Below, piece by piece: positions 1-6,064 of a stretch of 64,000 bases of DNA. Origin of the DNA: Psilocybe cubensis (lineage: Eukaryota). A model generated the notes under the pieces. That model did not search any database and was not told where the DNA came from. It saw only the letters and a list, made by a program, of their open reading frames with translations. Location: assembly GCA_017499595.2 (NCBI GenBank), contig CM039000.1:2232001-2296000 (forward strand), written 5' to 3'. Position numbers and translations under genes: made by a program. Within the stretch, counting starts at the first letter, position 1, and every line of letters begins with the position of its first letter.

Positions 1-447
1 ATCAAGGACAGGGAGTTCAGAAGCAGAGATTTGTATACATTCGCGCGTATCTCTGAGTCCCTGCAGTTGGTCCCACAATCATGCAGAGGTTGATCACCAC
101 AGTTGATATCAGCGCCAATTTTGGCGAGTTGAAAGCATATGTCCATGCGTGTTGTCGGTCGCATGATCACCATAGGAATGATTTAAATAAAAGTGATTTA
201 GCATTCGGCGGTGAGCGAATGTGTATCGAAATGGGGAGATGTAATATTAAACGCACCCAGCCACAGCTGTCAGAACCGCTCCCCAGCGAAAAGAATCATA
301 AATCCCCCTCCACGCCCAAGTAAGCTGTAGGAGCACTGAGTCCTGCACAGAGAGAAATGCTGGGTAAGTGGACCGCGACGAGACCCTCGCTGGTTGTCCT
401 GGGTATTGGAACGACTGTGGTCGGGCTGCATATGGCGCTGCAGACAT
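1..447 (-). CDS. EI24 (etoposide-induced protein 2.4)-like membrane protein, 5' part; runs off the left edge
   Basis: ATG at 447 (MSAAPYAARP...LQLTWAWRGIYDSFRWGAVLTAVAG), intron 256-61 (GTGCGT...CTGCAG), next exon GDSEIRANVYKSLLLNSLSL, which resembles fungal EI24-family N-termini. An upstream in-frame ATG at 540 is possible. Confidence 0.65.
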
Positions 448-962
448 CAGTGGGATAATGTTGTCTGGTTGGCTGCAGAGAACTGGTAGGCTACGTGGTG
501 AATGAGGAGAAAGGCTGGAAATGCTAATATTAGAGCGCATGCTGTAGACCCTAACCCTAGATTGGGAGATGTCAAATGACTGGCAGCTCAAACACTTAAA
601 CTCCTTCATAATTTTAAATTTTCTAGTGTTTTAGATATTCAATCTCGTACGGTAGGGGTACATAATACGAACACCCTATCATTTGACCAGGAAATGCTAC
701 GCAGAATAGTAAAGTACGGTAGCAGAAGAAAAATGAAGTACATCGTACACCTTGGCTCCAATAAGTTAAGAGTACAAATAAAGAGAAACAGGAAGGAAAG
801 CAACAGACAAAAGAACTAGTAAGACAAAAAGACCAAAGGCGATAACGGACACAATATCGAGTAGACAGCGGCAAAGGGAGAAGATCACCGGGATGGGATA
901 GGCGGAATGAAAGATCATGCATTAGATGAAAAAGAGGAAAAAGGAATCCGGAGTCAAAATAT

Positions 963-2176
963 TTATGATCGCTTGGTCGTCTGTTTCTTGGGCGCTTTGG
1001 CAGCAGGTTTGGCGGCATCCTTCTTTGCGGGAGTAGCTTTCTTTACGGACGCTTTCTTAGCGGCGGTCTTAACCTTGGTGGTGGTAGTTTTGCCAGTAAC
1101 AGCCTAAAAGAATAAAAATAAATATGCGAAATCTAATTTAGGAGTTAAAGATGCACGAGCCTTCTTTGCTGGTGCTTTCTTGCTGGCAGCCATTGTCTTC
1201 TTTGTTGTGGATGCGGTTTTAGCTTTGGGTTTGCCAGCCAAAACTTTCTTGGGGGCGGGGGTCTTCTTCACGGCTGTGGTGGCTTTCGGTTTCGCGGGGG
1301 CAGCCTTCTTGGGAGCGGCCGTCTTCGTGGTGGAGGGTTTGGAAGCCTTGGGTTTGGCAGTAGTCGCAGAGGCCTTAGCAGCCTTAGGTTTAGACGCAGC
1401 GGCTTTGGGCTTGGTAGCGGGCTTGTTCTATACAAAGTAGATTAGCAATGAAGTGAATTGCGAAAGAAGTACATACCTCTTTGGCGGCGGACGAATCAGC
1501 AGCAGGTTTGGACTTGGGAGCAAGTTTGACTCGCCCAGAAAGACCTAAGTAACGGCGAGCATTAGCATACAGAATGATGTTATAGCCGGGTGGGCATATG
1601 CATACCCTTGGGCAGGAAGAAGACACCCTTCTCGGCGCCAGACGTAATAGCCTTGGATAACTGGTTGACCTGAGCAGCACCAATTTCAAGCTTATACTTG
1701 GTCTCAACATATCTACGAGCCGGGTCAGGCAAGTGCAATTGGATTGAATACGAAAAGCATGCACATACTTCTTGATTTGTGGGCGTGAGACTCCGATACG
1801 AGCATCCTCAGTGTTGGCAGCAATGCACTCCTATAGCAGATAGCAGAAGCGTTAGCTTATTATCCTCAAATTATATTAAAGCAGTGGGAGTGGTGCAGGA
1901 TGCATAATATAAAAACAATGATTGAAATACTAGATTTATGTGTCGATACACATACCCTATGCCCAGAGGCCAGGTATACAGTAGTAAAGATAAAAAAATA
2001 AAAGCAAGAGAGAAGAGCGGACATCAAGAAACTCTGATATATAGGGTACAAGATGGATGAATACCGACCTTAATCATATCAACCCATGTTGGGTGAGATG
2101 CAGCGGGCTTTGCGACAGAAGACTTCTTGACGGTGGGCTTAGCAGTGCCTGAGGCTTTCTTTGAGGCGGTGGACAT
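963..2176 (-). CDS. HHO1: Linker histone H1
   Basis: Spliced product MSTASKKASG...HPTWVDMIK/ECIAANTEDARIGVSRPQIKK...FFLPKG/LSGRVKLAPK (winged-helix globular domain), then a long K/A/P-rich tail ending KKQTTKRS* (TAA at 965-963). Confidence 0.93.
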
Positions 2177-2642
2177 TGCAAAATAATAAGTGGAGTTGAT
2201 AAACAGGTAGGGAGATTGGGGAAGATTAACGCTTAAGGCAGAGTAGCGGTGGTTTGAGTTGAACCTGGGGCGCAGAGGGGGGTCTGATAACAATTCTCGT
2301 CCTCCGTCTATTTATACTAACACGATCGCGTCGGTCACGTGTATTGAACTATTTCAATCAACAAACAAATCTCCGAGCTTCTAATGCAGCCAGTACTAAA
2401 CATTTTAACAAAATTTTTGCACATTCCGATAGCCAAGATAATAAAGTTTTATATCTGAAAGTTTTATACATCTCACTTTACAGATGCTGCTGTTAGCAGA
2501 TTTCTACGATCATTGTTGATTCAGAAACGCGGTAGAACGCGTAGACAAGCGAGGCAGTCACATGACCATCGGGATCCCTCCACCCATCCCAGCCAATCAG
2601 CGTTCTCCAGTTTTCGCCCCGTTTCTGCCTCTCCACCTCCCC

Positions 2643-3251
2643 ATGTCCATCGCCCCTGCTCTCAAAGCCGCTACCCGCTCTGCATATCGGGATGTGCTTC
2701 GCGCCGCATCGGTGACCTTCTCTGGTACATGGCAGTCATCCCATATTGTGTTCTGAACTGACAGATGTTACACAGGAGATCAGCAAGTGCTCCAAGGTTG
2801 GTCCTTACCTTGATACCCCTTCTTGGAGCTAATGTTTGTCCAGCTTTCCGTTTAAAAATTCGGAATGATATCAGTCAGAACTCAGCCACAGACCCGGAAG
2901 CATACCAGAAGCATAATCAATTTATAAAAGATGTTGCTCAGGTTTTGCGGAAGAACGTCGTTCAAGGCGTCCACATAAAGGAGCCGGGTGAGCATGATGG
3001 AGGCTCGCTTTATCGTAAGTGGGAATTAACTTCAAACATATCTATCCTGACCTCAGATATCAGGCATACGTATGACTAAGGATACTGAGCTTGGAGACAA
3101 TGATTCCATCAAGAACCCTCCACCCATTGAGTCCAGTCGCAGCGCCCGTCGGAAAGAAAAGGGCCAGCCACACAAGTGCGGATGAGCCTTATCTTAGCTT
3201 ACAACTGGAACGACCATTGATCAGGCATTTGTTAGATGCTGTTCCAACTGA
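2643..3251 (+). CDS. MZM1: Mitochondrial zinc maintenance protein 1 / LYRM7 (complex III Rieske chaperone)
   Basis: Spliced MSIAPALKAATRSAYRDVLRAASVTFSGD...VAQVLRKNVVQG...[17 protein letters not shown]...HKCCSN*. LYR-like AYR, LRKNVVQG and TELGDN motifs are typical of Mzm1. Last intron 3176-3235, stop 3249-3251. Confidence 0.9.
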
Positions 3252-3829
3252 TACTGACTTACCCTCTTCTTCTAATTCCCCTCCCCGTTATTTCTCTGCC
3301 CTCAAGAAAGCCCACAAAGAGCGTGTTATCCCAGAACTTCTAGAAGAAGACTTGGAAGAGCAATTTGTCAGAGGTACGCTTATATATTCCTTATAGTATC
3401 TTGCAGACGTTCAAATTTCCTCCAGGTAGTGGACCGGTATGTTCATGTCTGGTATCTTAGTTGGACTCAAAGCCATATTCGTGATAGGGCGGACAATCAA
3501 TCAATAAAACTGAAAATAACGTCCAATTGCTTCATAAGCCAACAGGTATCCGTGTGTCTTGTCAGGATACTCGTTCTCTTTCGCAGAATAGAAAATTGGC
3601 TCGAAAATGGCTCCTTGAGAAGGCGTGTTTGTCTCTATATTCCCTTCACGGACAAACAAGTTAACGCAATGCATTGCTGGTTTAGCTTGACCAATTAGCG
3701 AACCCGGGTCTGTCGAAAGAAGCGATGAAGGCTGCCAAACAACGCGAACGCGAGCGGCAAAGGAGAAAAAAGGCTAAGAAAAAAGCGCTGCAAAAGAATG
3801 CGCAGAATAGTAAAGATGATGCGGATTGA
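3100..3829 (+). CDS. Mitochondrial codon-independent peptidyl-tRNA hydrolase (RF-1 domain; C12orf65/mtRF-R/Pth3-like); start uncertain, interlocked with MZM1
   Basis: Spliced [69 protein letters not shown]...basic tail...DDAD*. GGQ motif intact; 11-nt micro-exon 3426-3436; TGA 3827-3829. Confidence 0.85.
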
Positions 3830-4023
3830 TAGACTATGAGGCTTCAATGATACTGGAGTTTAATGTTTACCGTAATCAATGGTTGCTAGTGAACTATTTC
3901 TAACCATTCTGTGCTACGGCATATTCCGACTGACTTAAGTCTTAAGTTACAACACTCCTATAATGTGCTTATATCCACATTACTCTTCGGGATCTGTAAT
4001 AAACTCCTCCAAGATCGACAACG

Positions 4024-6064
4024 ATGGCGAACGTGAATTCGAGCGGATTGCATTCGCTCGCTACCATAATTAAGCGGTAAGTTTCTTCCGATCGTCACTA
4101 GGATTTTAGAACCTATAGCTGAAGCCTGACGTGTCGCTGAAGCCTTGAAGCTGCGGCTTCCCGATTCGAAGATATCGCGCTCGCTATTGATCCATCGACT
4201 GGTTCGAATAGAATAGAACCCGTACAACAATCCAAGTCACCCGCTCAGGAGACATCTACTCCCCATGTCCCCTCAGCACCTCCACCACCTCCACCCCCAG
4301 CACCAGCTGTCGCGGCTCCTGCGGTTCAAGAGACACCAAAGAGTGTACTTTCATTCCATGAAAAGGTCGTCGATGCCAAGGTCAAGCCCTTCCTAGACTT
4401 CACCAAAAACTTTGCTGGTCCTAATGTCGTTGAGATTGTGCGTCAATTCTATCAGAGCGAATCCGTCGTCAAGCTGACAATGATGTTGACGTTTTGAAGA
4501 GTGCTCTAGTTCAAAAGCAGTATGAGATTCTAGGTGATTTCTTGGAACTGGTGTCATCCTGCACAAAGCCGGAACAGAAAACATTGGAGAATATCCTCGG
4601 TCCATTCCTCAAATCCATTGAAGCTATATCTCGTGCCAAGGAAGCCAACAGGCGTGACAGGGACTGGTTCTCGCACTTAACTATCCTAGCAGAGGGTGCA
4701 CCAATCATTGGATGGGTTATCAATGTGAGCATTTGCAATTATTACGTTCTGTGGCGCTAAATGACCATGGTTTTCGTCTAGCCCAAACCTGCACAATTTG
4801 TCGTCGATATCAAGGACACAGTCGTATACTACGGAAATAGGGTGAAACAAGAATACAAAGATAAGTAAGTAGATTGTCTCTTTCCGTGATTGTCATGCAA
4901 GAGTAACCCATGGTACCAGGAATCCTAAACACGTTGAATGGGTTAACCTGTATGTTGCGATCTTCGATGCCATGCAGGCATACATCAAAGAGTATCATGC
5001 TGCTGGCTTGGTGTGGAATTCGAAGGTGTGTAGTTATAGCCAAGTTAATGACGATTTCCTAATACCATTTCACCTCTACTAATCAAGGGTATCCCTGTTC
5101 AAGAATACAAAGCTCAGGGTTCAGCCGAAGCAGGTGGTGCTCCACCACCACCACCACCACCTCCTCCTCCTCCTGCCCCGGTACCTGCACCTGCACCCGC
5201 GACCGCACCTGCAACTGGTGCCGCAGCAGTATTCGCCGAACTCAACCGCGGAGAAGAGGTTACCAAAGGCCTCCGCAAGGTCGACAAGAGCGAAATGACG
5301 CACAAAAATCCGGCGCTAAGAGCTAGTAGTGTTGTCCCAGCATCAACATCGAGTTCAGCAGGTCGGCATTTTATCATGCTTTTTCAATATAATCCCTAAT
5401 CGCTTTACCGACTTTTATTCCAGTTAGTAAGAAACCTCTCAAACCATCCAAGCCACAGGCTCTTGCGGGGAAGAAACCCAGCAAACTTGCGTTGGAAGGA
5501 AACAAGTGGCTAGTGGTAAATATGGTGATCTATTCTTTCCGCAGCTTAGTTGACCTCTGTTCTCAAGGAATATTATGAAAACGAGACTTTGACGATCGAC
5601 CAAACGGAAATCAGCCAATCTGTCAACGTGTACGGTTGCAAAAACACAATCGTTATCATCAAGGGGAAAGTCAATGCGGTCAATATTCGTACGTTCACAA
5701 CCTTTGCCTTATCTGTTTCATACTAATACACTATCATACCCCAGTCAAGGGCTCGAAGACCTCCGTTCTCGTCGATTCGGTTGTGGCTTCTATCTCCATT
5801 ACGGACTCACCATCCTTCCAACTGCAAATCACCGGAACTGCGCCAATGATCCAACTTGACTCAACCGACTCTGGTCAGATTTACCTGTCAAAGCACAGTC
5901 TCAACGCCGAAATCACAACCGCCAAATGCAGCGCGATCAATGTTAGTTTGCCTGTTGCTGGAGAGGAGGAGGGTATCTTTGAAGAGCAACCTGTTCCTGA
6001 GATGTTCAAAACAGTTATTAAGGACGGCAAGCTTGTCACCACAATTGTGGAGCACGCTGGCTGA
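4024..6064 (+). CDS. SRV2: Adenylyl cyclase-associated protein (CAP)
   Basis: N-terminal LATIIKRLEAAASRFEDIA (RLE motif), helical domain, poly-Pro, WH2-like AVFAELNRGEEVTKGLRKVDKSEMTHKNP, and C-terminal CARP domain ending IVEHAG*. Confidence 0.95.

What the first reader, a model, noticed from the sequence alone, without database searches (positions are those of the whole stretch)
2643..3829. MZM1 and a GGQ release factor interlocked: alternative 3' splice sites switch between Mzm1 and an Mzm1-RF fusion
Seen: the donor at 3176 (CAC AA|GTGCG) has two acceptors. TTAG at 3235 gives ...HK-CCSN* (stop 3249-3251), a plausible Mzm1 end. TCAG at 3224, 11 nt upstream, gives ...[11 protein letters not shown]..., in frame with the whole RF-1 domain. 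Each has a branch-like site (GCTTAC 3197-3202; TTGAT ~3217-3221). There is no intergenic space or separate promoter region for the RF gene. Known: tandem mitochondrial precursor fusions exist in fungi (S. pombe Rsm22-Cox11), and Mzm1 and mtRF-R both act in the matrix. Inference: the ribosome-rescue factor is imported piggyback on, or co-regulated with, a complex III chaperone through a splice switch.
Basis: partly seen in the sequence, partly recalled or inferred. Interest (0 to 1): 0.75.

Follow-up and report, generated by a model that had tools for sequence, protein, structure and literature searches.

The report
One mRNA, Mzm1 and mitochondrial rescue factor
A mushroom gene for a respiratory-chain chaperone (Mzm1) and a gene for a mitochondrial ribosome-rescue factor are copied into one messenger RNA, and a choice between two splice points 11 bases apart probably decides whether the chaperone is made alone or fused to the rescue factor.

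Summary
In two RNA-derived assemblies, one spliced contig spans both genes (2618-3858) and uses only the distal acceptor (3175/3236). That gives Mzm1 of 133 aa ending CCSN*.

The fusion junction 3175/3225 was not seen, but contigs drop rare forms.

- 57 of 80 related loci keep Mzm1 directly upstream of the factor.
- In 22 of 22 loci of the window's type, the main acceptor gives a short CCSx* tail and an upstream AG lies in frame. The nearest AG is 5, 8, 11 or 14 nt away in 17 of 18 distinct sequences; control acceptors show no such bias.
- 26 of 26 Russula-type loci keep a different two-AG design with the same logic.
- The factor's exon usually has no ATG of its own.

Verdict: interpretation partly supported. 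It is a new variant of known kinds, and the fusion isoform is not yet shown.

The parts
2618..3858 (+). Extent of the single spliced transcript that carries both reading frames
   Evidence: contig of X1 covers 2618-3824 and contig of X2 covers 2620-3858. The exon lengths sum to 866 nt, which equals the X2 contig length (with exon 5 corrected to end at 3373).
2643..2724 (+). MZM1 exon 1, with ATG at 2643 and the AYR (LYR-type) motif
   Evidence: joint 2723/2775, cut +1. The translated exons are 100% identical to NCBI protein P0121, named Mzm1.
2776..2796 (+). MZM1 exon 2 (21 nt)
2844..3014 (+). MZM1 exon 3
3064..3175 (+). MZM1 exon 4, carrying the TELGDND motif and the basic stretch [15 protein letters not shown]
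3100..3102 (+). ATG of an overlapping frame (+1 relative to Mzm1). On the main mRNA it would give a 167-aa factor starting [24 protein letters not shown]
   Evidence: Not conserved: only 2 of about 20 distinct relatives have an ATG in that frame.
3176..3235 (+). Intron 4 (60 nt) as removed in the observed mRNA; donor GTGCGG
   Evidence: joint 3175/3236, GT..AG, seen in both RNA contigs.
3183..3185 (+). TGA that ends Mzm1 (...PHKCG*) if intron 4 is retained
3217..3221 (+). Branch-site-like TTGAT, 2 nt before the proximal AG. The equivalent YTGAY sits at this place in relatives.
   Evidence: sequence contexts
3223..3224 (+). Proximal acceptor AG. Its use would give the in-frame Mzm1-factor fusion of 274 aa.
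   Evidence: It is used in NCBI model P0121. It was not seen in the RNA contigs.
3225..3235 (+). The 11-nt alternative segment (GCATTTGTTAG), which codes HLL in the fusion
3234..3235 (+). Distal acceptor AG, the one used in the observed mRNA
3236..3251 (+). Dual-coding start of exon 5. It encodes the Mzm1 tail CCSN plus TGA in one frame and (D)AVPTD of the factor in the +1 frame.
   Evidence: The tail and its stop are conserved in 22 of 22 loci of this type.
3236..3373 (+). Exon 5: the factor's N-terminal region, ending ...EQFVRG
3426..3436 (+). 11-nt micro-exon GTAGTGGACCG, supplying the S-G-P of GSGPGGQ
   Evidence: (7 letters lie between joint 3376/3487)
3488..3622 (+). GGQ exon of the RF-1 domain
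   Evidence: (PF00472, E 1.6e-14)
3623..3685 (+). GC-AG intron
   Evidence: joint 3620/3684, which can slide by 2; context GAGAAG|gcgtgt ... tttag|CTTGAC
3686..3829 (+). Last coding exon, a basic C-terminal tail, with the stop at 3827-3829

Best explanation
MZM1 (the LYRM7-type chaperone of the Rieske protein) and the fungal counterpart of human mtRF-R/C12orf65 (a GGQ ribosome-rescue factor) form one transcription unit that is conserved across Agaricomycetes.

All transcripts start at the MZM1 promoter. Intron 4 has one donor (3176) and two AGs 11 nt apart.

- The distal AG (3235) lies about 15 nt after the branch-like TTGAT and is the main acceptor. It puts five codons of exon 5 (CCSN, stop) in the Mzm1 frame, so the common mRNA makes Mzm1 alone (133 aa) and the factor's frame becomes untranslated trailer.
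- The proximal AG (3224) lies only about 4 nt after the branch-like site. It is presumably used rarely. Its use adds 11 nt, restores the frame and yields a 274-aa Mzm1-factor fusion.

The fusion would carry the factor, which has no start codon or presequence of its own in most species, into the matrix on Mzm1's N-terminus.

Shown:
- co-transcription and use of the distal junction;
- conservation of the tail, its stop, and an in-frame upstream AG.

Inferred:
- that the proximal AG is used at all in this organism;
- that the fusion is imported;
- whether the fusion is then cleaved.
For: 1; one spliced contig in each of X1 and X2 covers both reading frames, with joint 3175/3236. DNA-like runs X3 and X4 are colinear with the window.

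2; the distal junction gives 133 aa ending CCSN*. The proximal junction gives 274 aa through GGQ to the stop at 3829.

3; 57 of 80 metagenome loci have the Mzm1 TELGxN motif 246-426 nt upstream of the factor's FVRG motif on the same strand.

4; in 22 of 22 loci of the window's type, three things hold.
   - Exon 5 starts at codon position 2 of the factor's frame.
   - The Mzm1 frame stops after 4-6 codons (tails CCSS, CCSA, CCSN, CCPA, CSSS, TCCSA and similar).
   - At least one upstream AG is in frame and open.
   The nearest upstream AG is at 5, 8, 11 or 14 nt in 17 of 18 distinct sequences. The 11-nt spacing is kept in 9 distinct sequences whose spacers differ in sequence.

5. (controls): at two other acceptors of the same loci, the nearest AG falls in mod-3 classes 13/10/14 (n=37) and 12/5/3 (n=20), and it lies further away.

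6; 26 of 26 Russula-type loci (19 distinct) keep a different design. The donor is GA|GTGAG. A proximal AG is followed at once by an in-frame TGA or TAA. A second AG 12 nt later gives the in-frame fusion. The logic is the same although the sequence solution differs.

7; on the virtually spliced main mRNA, an ATG in the factor's frame upstream of the junction exists in only 2 of about 20 distinct loci. There is no in-frame ATG between the Mzm1 stop and GGQ in the window.

8. L001, a spliced cDNA-like contig, shows the same out-of-frame main junction (...GGQR|TCCSA*), and its factor frame has no ATG.

9; 60 of 72 NCBI gene models among the best 120 hits join both motifs. Two Russula models use exactly the predicted distal junction (VTVD-SDVQ).

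10. P0156, a contiguous ORF on an unannotated contig, runs from the Mzm1 C-terminal peptide MRRKEKDE straight into the factor.

11; the factor's best solved relative is human C12orf65 (7a5h_C, E 4.6e-22).
Against: - The fusion junction 3175/3225 was not seen in either RNA contig. Contigs drop rare forms, so this is weak evidence, but it leaves the central claim unshown.
- Of 21 spliced ORFs from unannotated contigs, 20 are not fused, and 0 of 48 unannotated ORFs carry both motifs. If the fusion exists, it is a minority form.
- The NCBI fusion models are automatic predictions with evident errors. P0121, P0123 and P0135 skip the GGQ exon, and others insert AC[LYF] at the GC-AG intron.
- An AG 4 nt after a branch point is normally a very poor acceptor (general knowledge, recalled). 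The proximal AG would need another branch site such as CTTAC at 3198-3202.
- The conserved peptide-like LTSS.DA upstream of the acceptor in Polyporales ORFs may simply reflect branch site, pyrimidine tract and AG.
- This species has its own possible route from ATG 3100.
- The DNA of P0156 was not seen, and its ORF starts internally.
- Three models (P0036, P0042, P0105) carry the CC motif in frame with the factor, so the design is not uniform.
Confidence: 0.55

Rival explanations
1. The two proteins come from overlapping genes, not a fusion. In this species the factor would be translated on its own from ATG 3100. That frame is 167 aa, overlaps the end of MZM1 by 92 nt in the +1 frame, and starts with a presequence-like peptide. 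Translation would come either from a shorter transcript that starts inside MZM1 or from internal initiation on the bicistronic mRNA.
For: -: the frame is open from 3076, with an ATG at 3100 in a good context (A at -3). The 60-nt intron keeps this frame intact.
- The N-terminus [24 protein letters not shown] is basic and has no acidic residue.
- spliced unannotated ORFs of other taxa also begin with a Met in this overlapping frame (P0043 MIRSKTHHQW..., P0012, P0063, and P0158).
- Gordon et al. 2015 (PMC4503453; abstract and passages read) report that genes in Agaricomycete polycistronic transcripts are also transcribed independently.
Against: -: seven ATGs precede ATG 3100 on the mRNA, so leaky scanning is unlikely.
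- in most relatives the ATG is absent (Asn codon AAC, or the next codon is not GAx), or it is followed by a stop within 3 codons. Only 2 of about 20 distinct loci have a usable ATG.
- L001 has none at all, so this cannot be the conserved route.
- By rough estimate, a 34-codon open +1 frame is expected by chance about one time in five.
- No 5' end inside the gene could be seen, because contigs cannot show starts.
Confidence: 0.22
2. The factor would be made from the main mRNA by translational recoding: a +1 frameshift in or at the end of the CCSN-stop tail in the window's type of locus, or stop-codon readthrough in the Russula type. This would resemble the frameshift-dependent synthesis of bacterial RF2 (recalled).
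For: -: in 22 of 22 loci the factor's frame is exactly +1 of the short Mzm1 tail.
- in the Russula type the factor follows the stop in frame, often in a TGA-C context.
Against: -: the codon before the stop and the stop itself vary (for example AAC TGA, AGC TAA, GCC TAG, GCA TAG), and no shift-prone motif is shared.
- the stop is TGA or TAA, with varying next bases.
- The two locus types would need two different recoding events, whereas alternative AG choice explains both.
- Recoding gives no reason for the conserved in-frame upstream AG.
Confidence: 0.05
3. The fusion reading is an annotation artefact and the factor's frame on this mRNA is never translated. The mRNA would be simply MZM1 with a long 3' trailer, or a read-through product.
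For: -: only the Mzm1-only junction was seen.
- Gordon et al. 2015 describe read-through transcription as widespread in Agaricomycetes.
Against: -: the GGQ exon is 80-98% identical across orders of Agaricomycetes.
- its introns, including an 11-nt micro-exon and a GC-AG intron, are spliced precisely so that the frame is kept.
- No other start for the factor exists in most loci.
Confidence: 0.03

Closest known systems
S. pombe Rsm22-Cox11 tandem mitochondrial precursor (as described in Angerer 2015, PMC4381221; passages read)
   Same: Two unrelated matrix proteins are encoded head to tail, so the second could enter mitochondria on the first one's targeting signal. Expression of the two is coupled.
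   Different: Rsm22-Cox11 is a constitutive fusion that is cleaved after import. Here the common mRNA stops after the first protein, and the fusion would need a minor splice choice. Import and cleavage were not tested.
Predicted LYRM4 / RF-1 (C12orf65) fusion proteins in five insects (Angerer 2015, PMC4381221, text and Table 2 passages)
   Same: A LYR-motif protein is joined to the same GGQ factor family (PF00472, human counterpart C12orf65).
   Different: The LYR paralogue differs (LYRM4 there, Mzm1/LYRM7 here) and so does the kingdom. Those are unreviewed database models for which no splice switch was described. Pfam does not detect the LYR domain in the fungal models, which may be why they were not listed.
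Polycistronic transcripts of Agaricomycetes (Gordon et al. 2015, PMC4503453; abstract and passages read)
   Same: One polyadenylated transcript carries two conserved same-strand genes, in the same fungal class.
   Different: That screen required non-overlapping ORFs of at least 100 aa that matched separate annotated genes, with stops in all frames between them. Here the ORFs overlap or abut with no spacer, most annotations merge them, and the second has no start codon in most species. The terms release factor, RF-1, LYR and Mzm1 do not occur in that paper's main text. Its supplementary PDFs were not seen.
Tandem alternative 3' splice sites, and fungal dual targeting by alternative splicing or readthrough (recalled, from no call)
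   Same: Two AGs a few bases apart change the reading frame or the C-terminus of the product.
   Different: Here the choice does not merely alter a tail. It decides whether a second, complete protein domain of another family is attached.
Human mtRF-R (C12orf65), PDB 7a5h chain C
   Same: It is the best solved relative of the factor (E 4.6e-22 over residues 31-126 of P0008). Both have a GGQ motif and a basic C-terminal tail and lack a codon-recognition domain.
   Different: The human protein is a stand-alone gene product with its own presequence (recalled). The Agaricomycete one has no start codon of its own in most species.

Membership tests
mtRF-R / C12orf65-type GGQ rescue factor (RF-1 domain, PF00472) | RF-1 domain with a GGQ motif | tested here: met
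   PF00472 at E 1.6e-14 on 3488-3622, which begins with the GGQ of GSGPGGQ. E about 1e-23 on full models.
mtRF-R / C12orf65-type GGQ rescue factor (RF-1 domain, PF00472) | Closer to C12orf65 than to RF1/RF2, ArfB or ICT1; a short protein without codon-recognition domains | tested here: met
   the top two PDB hits are C12orf65 (4.6e-22) and its mouse homologue (1.5e-19), and the next hit is RF2 at 7.6e-13; the ArfB model scores 40.6 bits against a cutoff of 100. The factor part is about 140 aa.
mtRF-R / C12orf65-type GGQ rescue factor (RF-1 domain, PF00472) | Mitochondrial location and rescue activity on the large mitoribosomal subunit | not testable with these tools
   No experiment was possible. 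Location is inferred only from family membership and from linkage to Mzm1.
Mzm1 / LYRM7 (LYR-motif protein) | N-terminal LYR-type tripeptide (A/L-Y-R in the LYRM7 subfamily) with a downstream Phe | tested here: met
   SAYRDVLRAA is present. Y14, R15, F25 and F35 are invariant in 19 aligned sequences. PMC11293456 (passage read) says that Leu is replaced by Ala in the Lyrm7 subfamily.
Mzm1 / LYRM7 (LYR-motif protein) | Recognised by the Complex1_LYR profile or by sequence relatives named Mzm1 | tested here: inconclusive
   Pfam finds no LYR family at E<=0.1 on 5 models, and there is no PDB sequence hit at E<=10. Against that, NCBI and UniRef name P0121, P0123 and P0135 Mzm1. The Atlas nearest clusters are Complex1_LYR (0.92) and 'Mitochondrial zinc maintenance protein 1' (0.91, 0.89).
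Mzm1 / LYRM7 (LYR-motif protein) | Three-helix LYR fold | tested here: inconclusive
   the model of P0129 (mean pLDDT 73) has three helices (3-24, 29-44, 51-70) followed by a hairpin; no Foldseek match at E<=0.001. The best low-rmsd rows are small subunits of mitoribosome assembly intermediates and of complex I (6sga_Fb, prob 0.99, rmsd 1.2 over 62 columns; 6y79_P; 6gcs_P). I recall these to be LYR proteins, but no call named them as such.
Tandem alternative 3' splice sites | Two AGs downstream of one donor, each giving a defined product | tested here: met
Tandem alternative 3' splice sites | Both junctions observed in RNA | tested here: not met
   only 3175/3236 was seen, in 2 of 2 RNA contigs. 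Contigs drop rare variants, so the test is weak. Raw reads were not available.
Agaricomycete polycistronic transcript (Gordon et al. 2015) | [quoted passage not shown] | tested here: not met
   there is one transcript, but the ORFs overlap by 92 nt (133 aa and 167 aa). In most relatives the second ORF has no ATG.
Tandem mitochondrial precursor (Rsm22-Cox11 type) | A fused polypeptide is made, imported and cleaved | not testable with these tools
   Only the coding potential for the fusion is shown.

The most novel reading that the evidence does not exclude
The LYR domain is not just an import vehicle: the Mzm1-factor fusion is the working form of the rescue factor in mushrooms. LYR proteins dock on acyl-carrier protein, and by recall the human rescue complex of mtRF-R forms on large subunits that carry a LYR protein/ACP module. 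A covalently attached LYR domain could therefore tether the GGQ factor to that module, or link mitoribosome rescue to the Fe-S/complex III assembly state. LYR/C12orf65 fusions predicted independently in insects and found here in a whole fungal class would then point to a conserved physical partnership. The splice ratio would set the stoichiometry, and the conserved CCSx tail would be a functional end of free Mzm1.
Probability: 0.12. Interest if true: 0.85.

Novelty: new variant of a known kind. Interest (0 to 1): 0.62.

Why it matters
If the switch is real, a whole class of fungi makes an essential mitoribosome-rescue factor only as an appendage of a complex III chaperone. The dose would be set by the choice between two AGs 11 nt apart, and a 16-nt segment would be read in two frames.

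That would be a compact, conserved example of three things at once:
- alternative splicing that decides whether a second protein is attached;
- import of one protein on another's targeting signal;
- coupling between respiratory-complex assembly and mitochondrial translation quality control.

It also has a practical side. Public annotations of this locus are inconsistent: there are fusion models, models without the GGQ exon, and models merged with the neighbouring CAP gene. The micro-exon and the GC-AG intron explain why.

Tried and rejected
- **RNA runs.** No RNA holder is listed on record. X1 and X2 are only guessed to be RNA; I treat them as RNA-derived because every intron is removed. Contigs cannot show rare isoforms, transcript starts or expression levels, so the missing 3175/3225 junction and any internal start remain open.
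- **Own genome.** It is not held, so no search for a second mtRF-R or MZM1 copy was possible.
- **Searches with Mzm1 exons.** The search for homologous proteins returned few proteins: 11 and 2. The representative search gave 30 hits, mostly fragments. One of them, P0129, is a spliced Mzm1-alone ORF ending CCST.
- **LYR membership.** Pfam, NCBIfam and PDB sequence searches did not detect a LYR domain. Foldseek gave nothing at E<=0.001.
- **Earlier findings of this scan.** None.
- **Literature.** Searches for 'Mzm1' + 'release factor' + 'fusion', 'C12orf65' + 'LYR' + 'fused' and 'Psilocybe cubensis' + 'alternative splicing' found no description of this locus.
- **Reinitiation after the Mzm1 stop.** Rejected: there is no in-frame ATG before GGQ.
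- **Intron-4 retention as the fusion route in the window.** Rejected because of the TGA at 3183-3185. Retention is in frame and open in the Suillus-like loci L072, L014 and L023, but not in L008.
- **Intron-3 retention in the window.** It runs into a stop at 3077-3079.
- **P0129 and P0156.** Both sit on contigs of 1492 nt. I could not fetch the DNA to see whether they are one record or two isoforms.
- **Unclassified loci.** Nine loci with both motifs were not classified: L015, L016, L018, L022, L025, L027, L030, L032 and L064.
Full report
**What is in the window**

Reading 2000-4600 and translating candidate exons gives a plus-strand gene with these parts:
- MZM1 exons: 2643-2724, 2776-2796, 2844-3014 and 3064-3175.
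- Exon 5: 3236-3373, or 3225-3373 if the proximal acceptor is used.
- An 11-nt micro-exon at 3426-3436.
- The GGQ exon at 3488-3622.
- A GC-AG intron at 3623-3685.
- A last exon at 3686-3829.

Exons 1-4 encode a 129-residue LYR-type protein. Its translation is 100% identical to the NCBI protein P0121, 'Mitochondrial zinc maintenance protein 1 [Psilocybe cubensis]'. The downstream exons encode an RF-1/GGQ domain (PF00472, E 1.6e-14). Its best solved relative is human C12orf65/mtRF-R (7a5h_C, E 4.6e-22).

- The donor is CAC AA|GTGCGG at 3176.
- The AGs lie at 3223-3224 and 3234-3235.
- The distal junction gives ...PHK-CCSN, followed by TGA at 3249-3251.
- The proximal junction gives ...[12 protein letters not shown] in the factor's frame.

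**RNA evidence**

One search for sequencing runs gave two runs guessed to be RNA (X1 and X2: one study, two samples) and genome-like runs X3-X5. I laid X1-X4 on 2200-4300.
- X3 and X4 are colinear with the window.
- X1 and X2 each hold one contig, of 834 and 866 nt, running from 2618/2620 to 3824/3858.
- Every intron is removed in those contigs, including 3175/3236 (GT..AG, skipping 60 nt), the micro-exon and the GC-AG intron.
- The exon lengths sum to exactly 866 nt (after correcting the end of exon 5 to 3373).

So both reading frames sit on one spliced mRNA, and the assembled form uses the distal acceptor. On that mRNA Mzm1 is 133 aa. The proximal junction was not present. Contigs drop rare variants, so this does not exclude it.

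1. Unspliced RNA ends Mzm1 at ...PHKCG, with TGA at 3183-3185.
2. The factor's frame is open from 3076 and has an ATG at 3100. Because intron 4 is 60 nt, the main mRNA carries a 167-aa ORF in that frame. This ORF starts [24 protein letters not shown] and overlaps the Mzm1 ORF by 92 nt. Seven ATGs lie upstream of it on the mRNA.
3. The fusion is already the public automatic model for this locus. P0121 uses the proximal acceptor but skips the GGQ exon, evidently because of the GC-AG intron.

**Relatives: proteins**

A search with the GGQ exon found 358 proteins, of which the best 120 were listed.
- Of 72 NCBI-sourced models among those 120, 60 contain both the Mzm1 TELGxN motif and GGQ in one protein. 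Of these, 57 also carry the N-terminal xYR motif.
- They come from Agaricales, Polyporales, Russulales, Boletales and Hymenochaetales, going by their names.
- None of the 48 unannotated ORFs (JGI, ENA, Logan) carries both motifs.
- 21 of the unannotated ORFs are spliced, with RGSGPGGQ contiguous. Of these, 20 are factor-only ORFs whose N-termini read the end of MZM1 in the +1 frame or are truncated.
- The exception is P0156. It runs from the Mzm1 peptide MRRKEKDE in frame into the factor.
- P0129 is a spliced Mzm1-alone ORF of 127 aa ending ...KEKDECCST.

The non-fused mRNA is therefore the common form in many taxa, as it is in the window.

**Relatives: DNA**

A scan of metagenome contigs returned 80 loci. 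In 57 of them the Mzm1 motif lies 246-426 nt upstream of the factor's FVRG motif on the same strand. The other 23 lack one or both motifs. They are short contigs or factor genes of other organisms; some of the latter are stand-alone genes with their own Met and presequence-like start, and others are fused to a different N-terminal domain of about 450 aa.

Three-frame views and tabulations show four things.

1. **The window's long overlapping ORF is not conserved.** On virtually spliced main mRNAs, an ATG in the factor's frame upstream of the junction exists in 2 of about 20 distinct loci, namely the window and L070. One donor (L014) was mis-picked by my rule and L065 is cut by its contig end; neither changes the count.

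2. **The window's type of locus keeps a fixed geometry.** I picked 22 loci, including the window, by the motif AG-N(1-4)-TGYTGY, plus L002 by eye. In these loci:
   - Exon 5 always starts at codon position 2 of the factor's frame.
   - The Mzm1 frame always ends after 4-6 codons. The tails are CCSN, CCSS, CCSA, CCPA, CSSS, CCSAQ, KCCSA, TCCSA and GCCSA.
   - The stop is kept through a T (or TA) at a third-codon position of the factor's frame, even though the factor's residues there vary.
   - All 22 have an upstream AG that is in frame with the factor and not separated from it by a stop.
   - The nearest upstream AG is at 5, 8, 11 or 14 nt in 21 of 22 loci, or 17 of 18 distinct sequences. The exception is L080, where AGs lie at 3 and then 14 nt.
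   - The 11-nt spacing recurs in 9 distinct sequences whose spacers differ.

   As controls, I looked at two other acceptors in the same loci. Before the last exon, the mod-3 classes of the nearest AG are 13/10/14 (n=37). Before the GGQ exon they are 12/5/3 (n=20). Offsets at these acceptors are mostly 12 nt or more.

3. **Russula-type loci solve the same problem differently.** I selected 26 loci (19 distinct) by eye from the ...VE* tail. All 26 share this design:
   - a donor GA|GTGAG;
   - an AG followed at once by an in-frame TGA or TAA;
   - a second AG 12 nt later that gives an in-frame fusion.

   NCBI models of two Russula species use exactly that distal junction (VTVD-SDVQ).

4. **L001 is a spliced cDNA-like contig with the same main junction.** Its Mzm1 ends ...GGQR|TCCSA*, and its factor frame has no ATG.

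**Mechanism**

In both designs, the AG about 15 nt after the branch-like YTGAY gives the Mzm1-stop product. The other AG gives the fusion; it lies either very close to the branch site or 12 nt further on.

This fits the RNA data, in which Mzm1-only is the major form. It also explains why an in-frame AG is conserved although the factor lacks its own start.

Translational recoding fits less well. The codon before the stop and the stop itself vary with no shared shift site. The two designs would also need different events: a +1 shift in one and readthrough in the other.

In this species initiation at ATG 3100 remains a real rival, at about 0.22.

Whether a fusion is imported or cleaved, as Rsm22-Cox11 is (passage in PMC4381221), is inference only.

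**Family membership**

The factor meets the tests for the C12orf65 type.

The Mzm1 assignment rests on four lines of evidence:
- names given by NCBI and UniRef;
- the AYR motif with invariant Y, R and F residues, which matches the LYRM7 variant described in PMC11293456 (passage);
- Atlas neighbours;
- a three-helix model.

Pfam, PDB sequence search and Foldseek were not decisive.

**Literature**

- Gordon et al. 2015 (PMC4503453; abstract and passages read) describe widespread polycistronic transcripts in Agaricomycetes. Their screen required non-overlapping ORFs of at least 100 aa matching separate genes. Their main text does not mention release factor, RF-1, LYR or Mzm1. Their supplementary PDFs were not seen.
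- Angerer 2015 (PMC4381221; passages read) lists LYRM4/RF-1 (C12orf65) fusion models in five insects, and notes that Rsm22-Cox11 is cleaved after import.
- Searches found no description of an Mzm1/mtRF-R unit in fungi.

**Verdict**

The conserved single transcription unit, the dual-coding CCSx tail and the frame-conserved second AG are solid. The fusion isoform itself is still predicted rather than observed.

Noticed in passing
window 3426-3436: An 11-nt micro-exon (GTAGTGGACCG) supplies the S-G-P of the GSGPGGQ motif. It is spliced in both RNA contigs.
   Followed up: partly
window 3623-3685: A GC-AG intron lies after the GGQ exon. It probably explains two kinds of annotation error. Public models P0121, P0123 and P0135 skip the 135-nt GGQ exon (GSGP|LDQ). 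Other models carry a spurious AC[LYF] insertion (P0003, P0013, P0017). Spliced ORFs P0008 and P0015 show the clean LEK|LDK junction.
   Followed up: partly
window 4022 onward (+ strand): The next gene encodes an adenylyl-cyclase-associated (CAP) protein, and its first intron (4076-4141) is spliced in the RNA contigs. The NCBI model P0124 (Panaeolus cyanescens, 700 aa, Pfam PF08603) merges Mzm1, the start of the factor and CAP into one protein. The gene order is therefore conserved, and this locus is prone to merged models.
   Followed up: partly
window about 2024-2341 (- strand): A Lys/Ala-rich ORF (MSTASKKASGTAKPTVKK...) starts near 2176 on the opposite strand and is covered by RNA contigs up to about 2341. 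About 275 nt (2342-2617) separate it from the MZM1 transcript start, which suggests a short divergent promoter region. The protein was not identified.
   Followed up: no
L025:1486-2295 and L027:532-1332: In a more distant, unnamed lineage, one uninterrupted ORF contains three parts: the Mzm1 C-terminal half; a linker of about 95 aa with a presequence-like stretch (AITRSFSTSARCAKSK); and the factor, with GSGPGGQ contiguous. This could be a hard-wired tandem precursor, or it could hide an in-frame intron.
   Followed up: partly
P0039 versus P0040 (Coprinopsis cinerea models): The AmutBmut model P0039 reads MZM1 exon 4 in the +1 frame (KLNWATTSLSSHHLP instead of ETELGDNESIKSPPP) after an apparently retained intron 3. 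The older model P0040 is an in-frame fusion. The two annotations of one species thus disagree in exactly the way the two junction types predict.
   Followed up: partly
P0036, P0042, P0105: In three NCBI models (Schizopora, Obba, Gelatoporia) the CC motif of the Mzm1 tail lies in frame with the factor (for example ...GTGCCQADGKSAVPRFY). In those lineages the main junction might itself give a fusion.
   Followed up: no
L042, L045, L047, L050, L053, L055, L059: Other eukaryotic contigs encode the same GGQ domain at the end of proteins of about 490-590 aa. These carry a conserved N-terminal region (LYREWTLE..LLWEN..RGLRGVE.RL.KL) of unknown nature. This is another independent fusion of this factor.
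   Followed up: no
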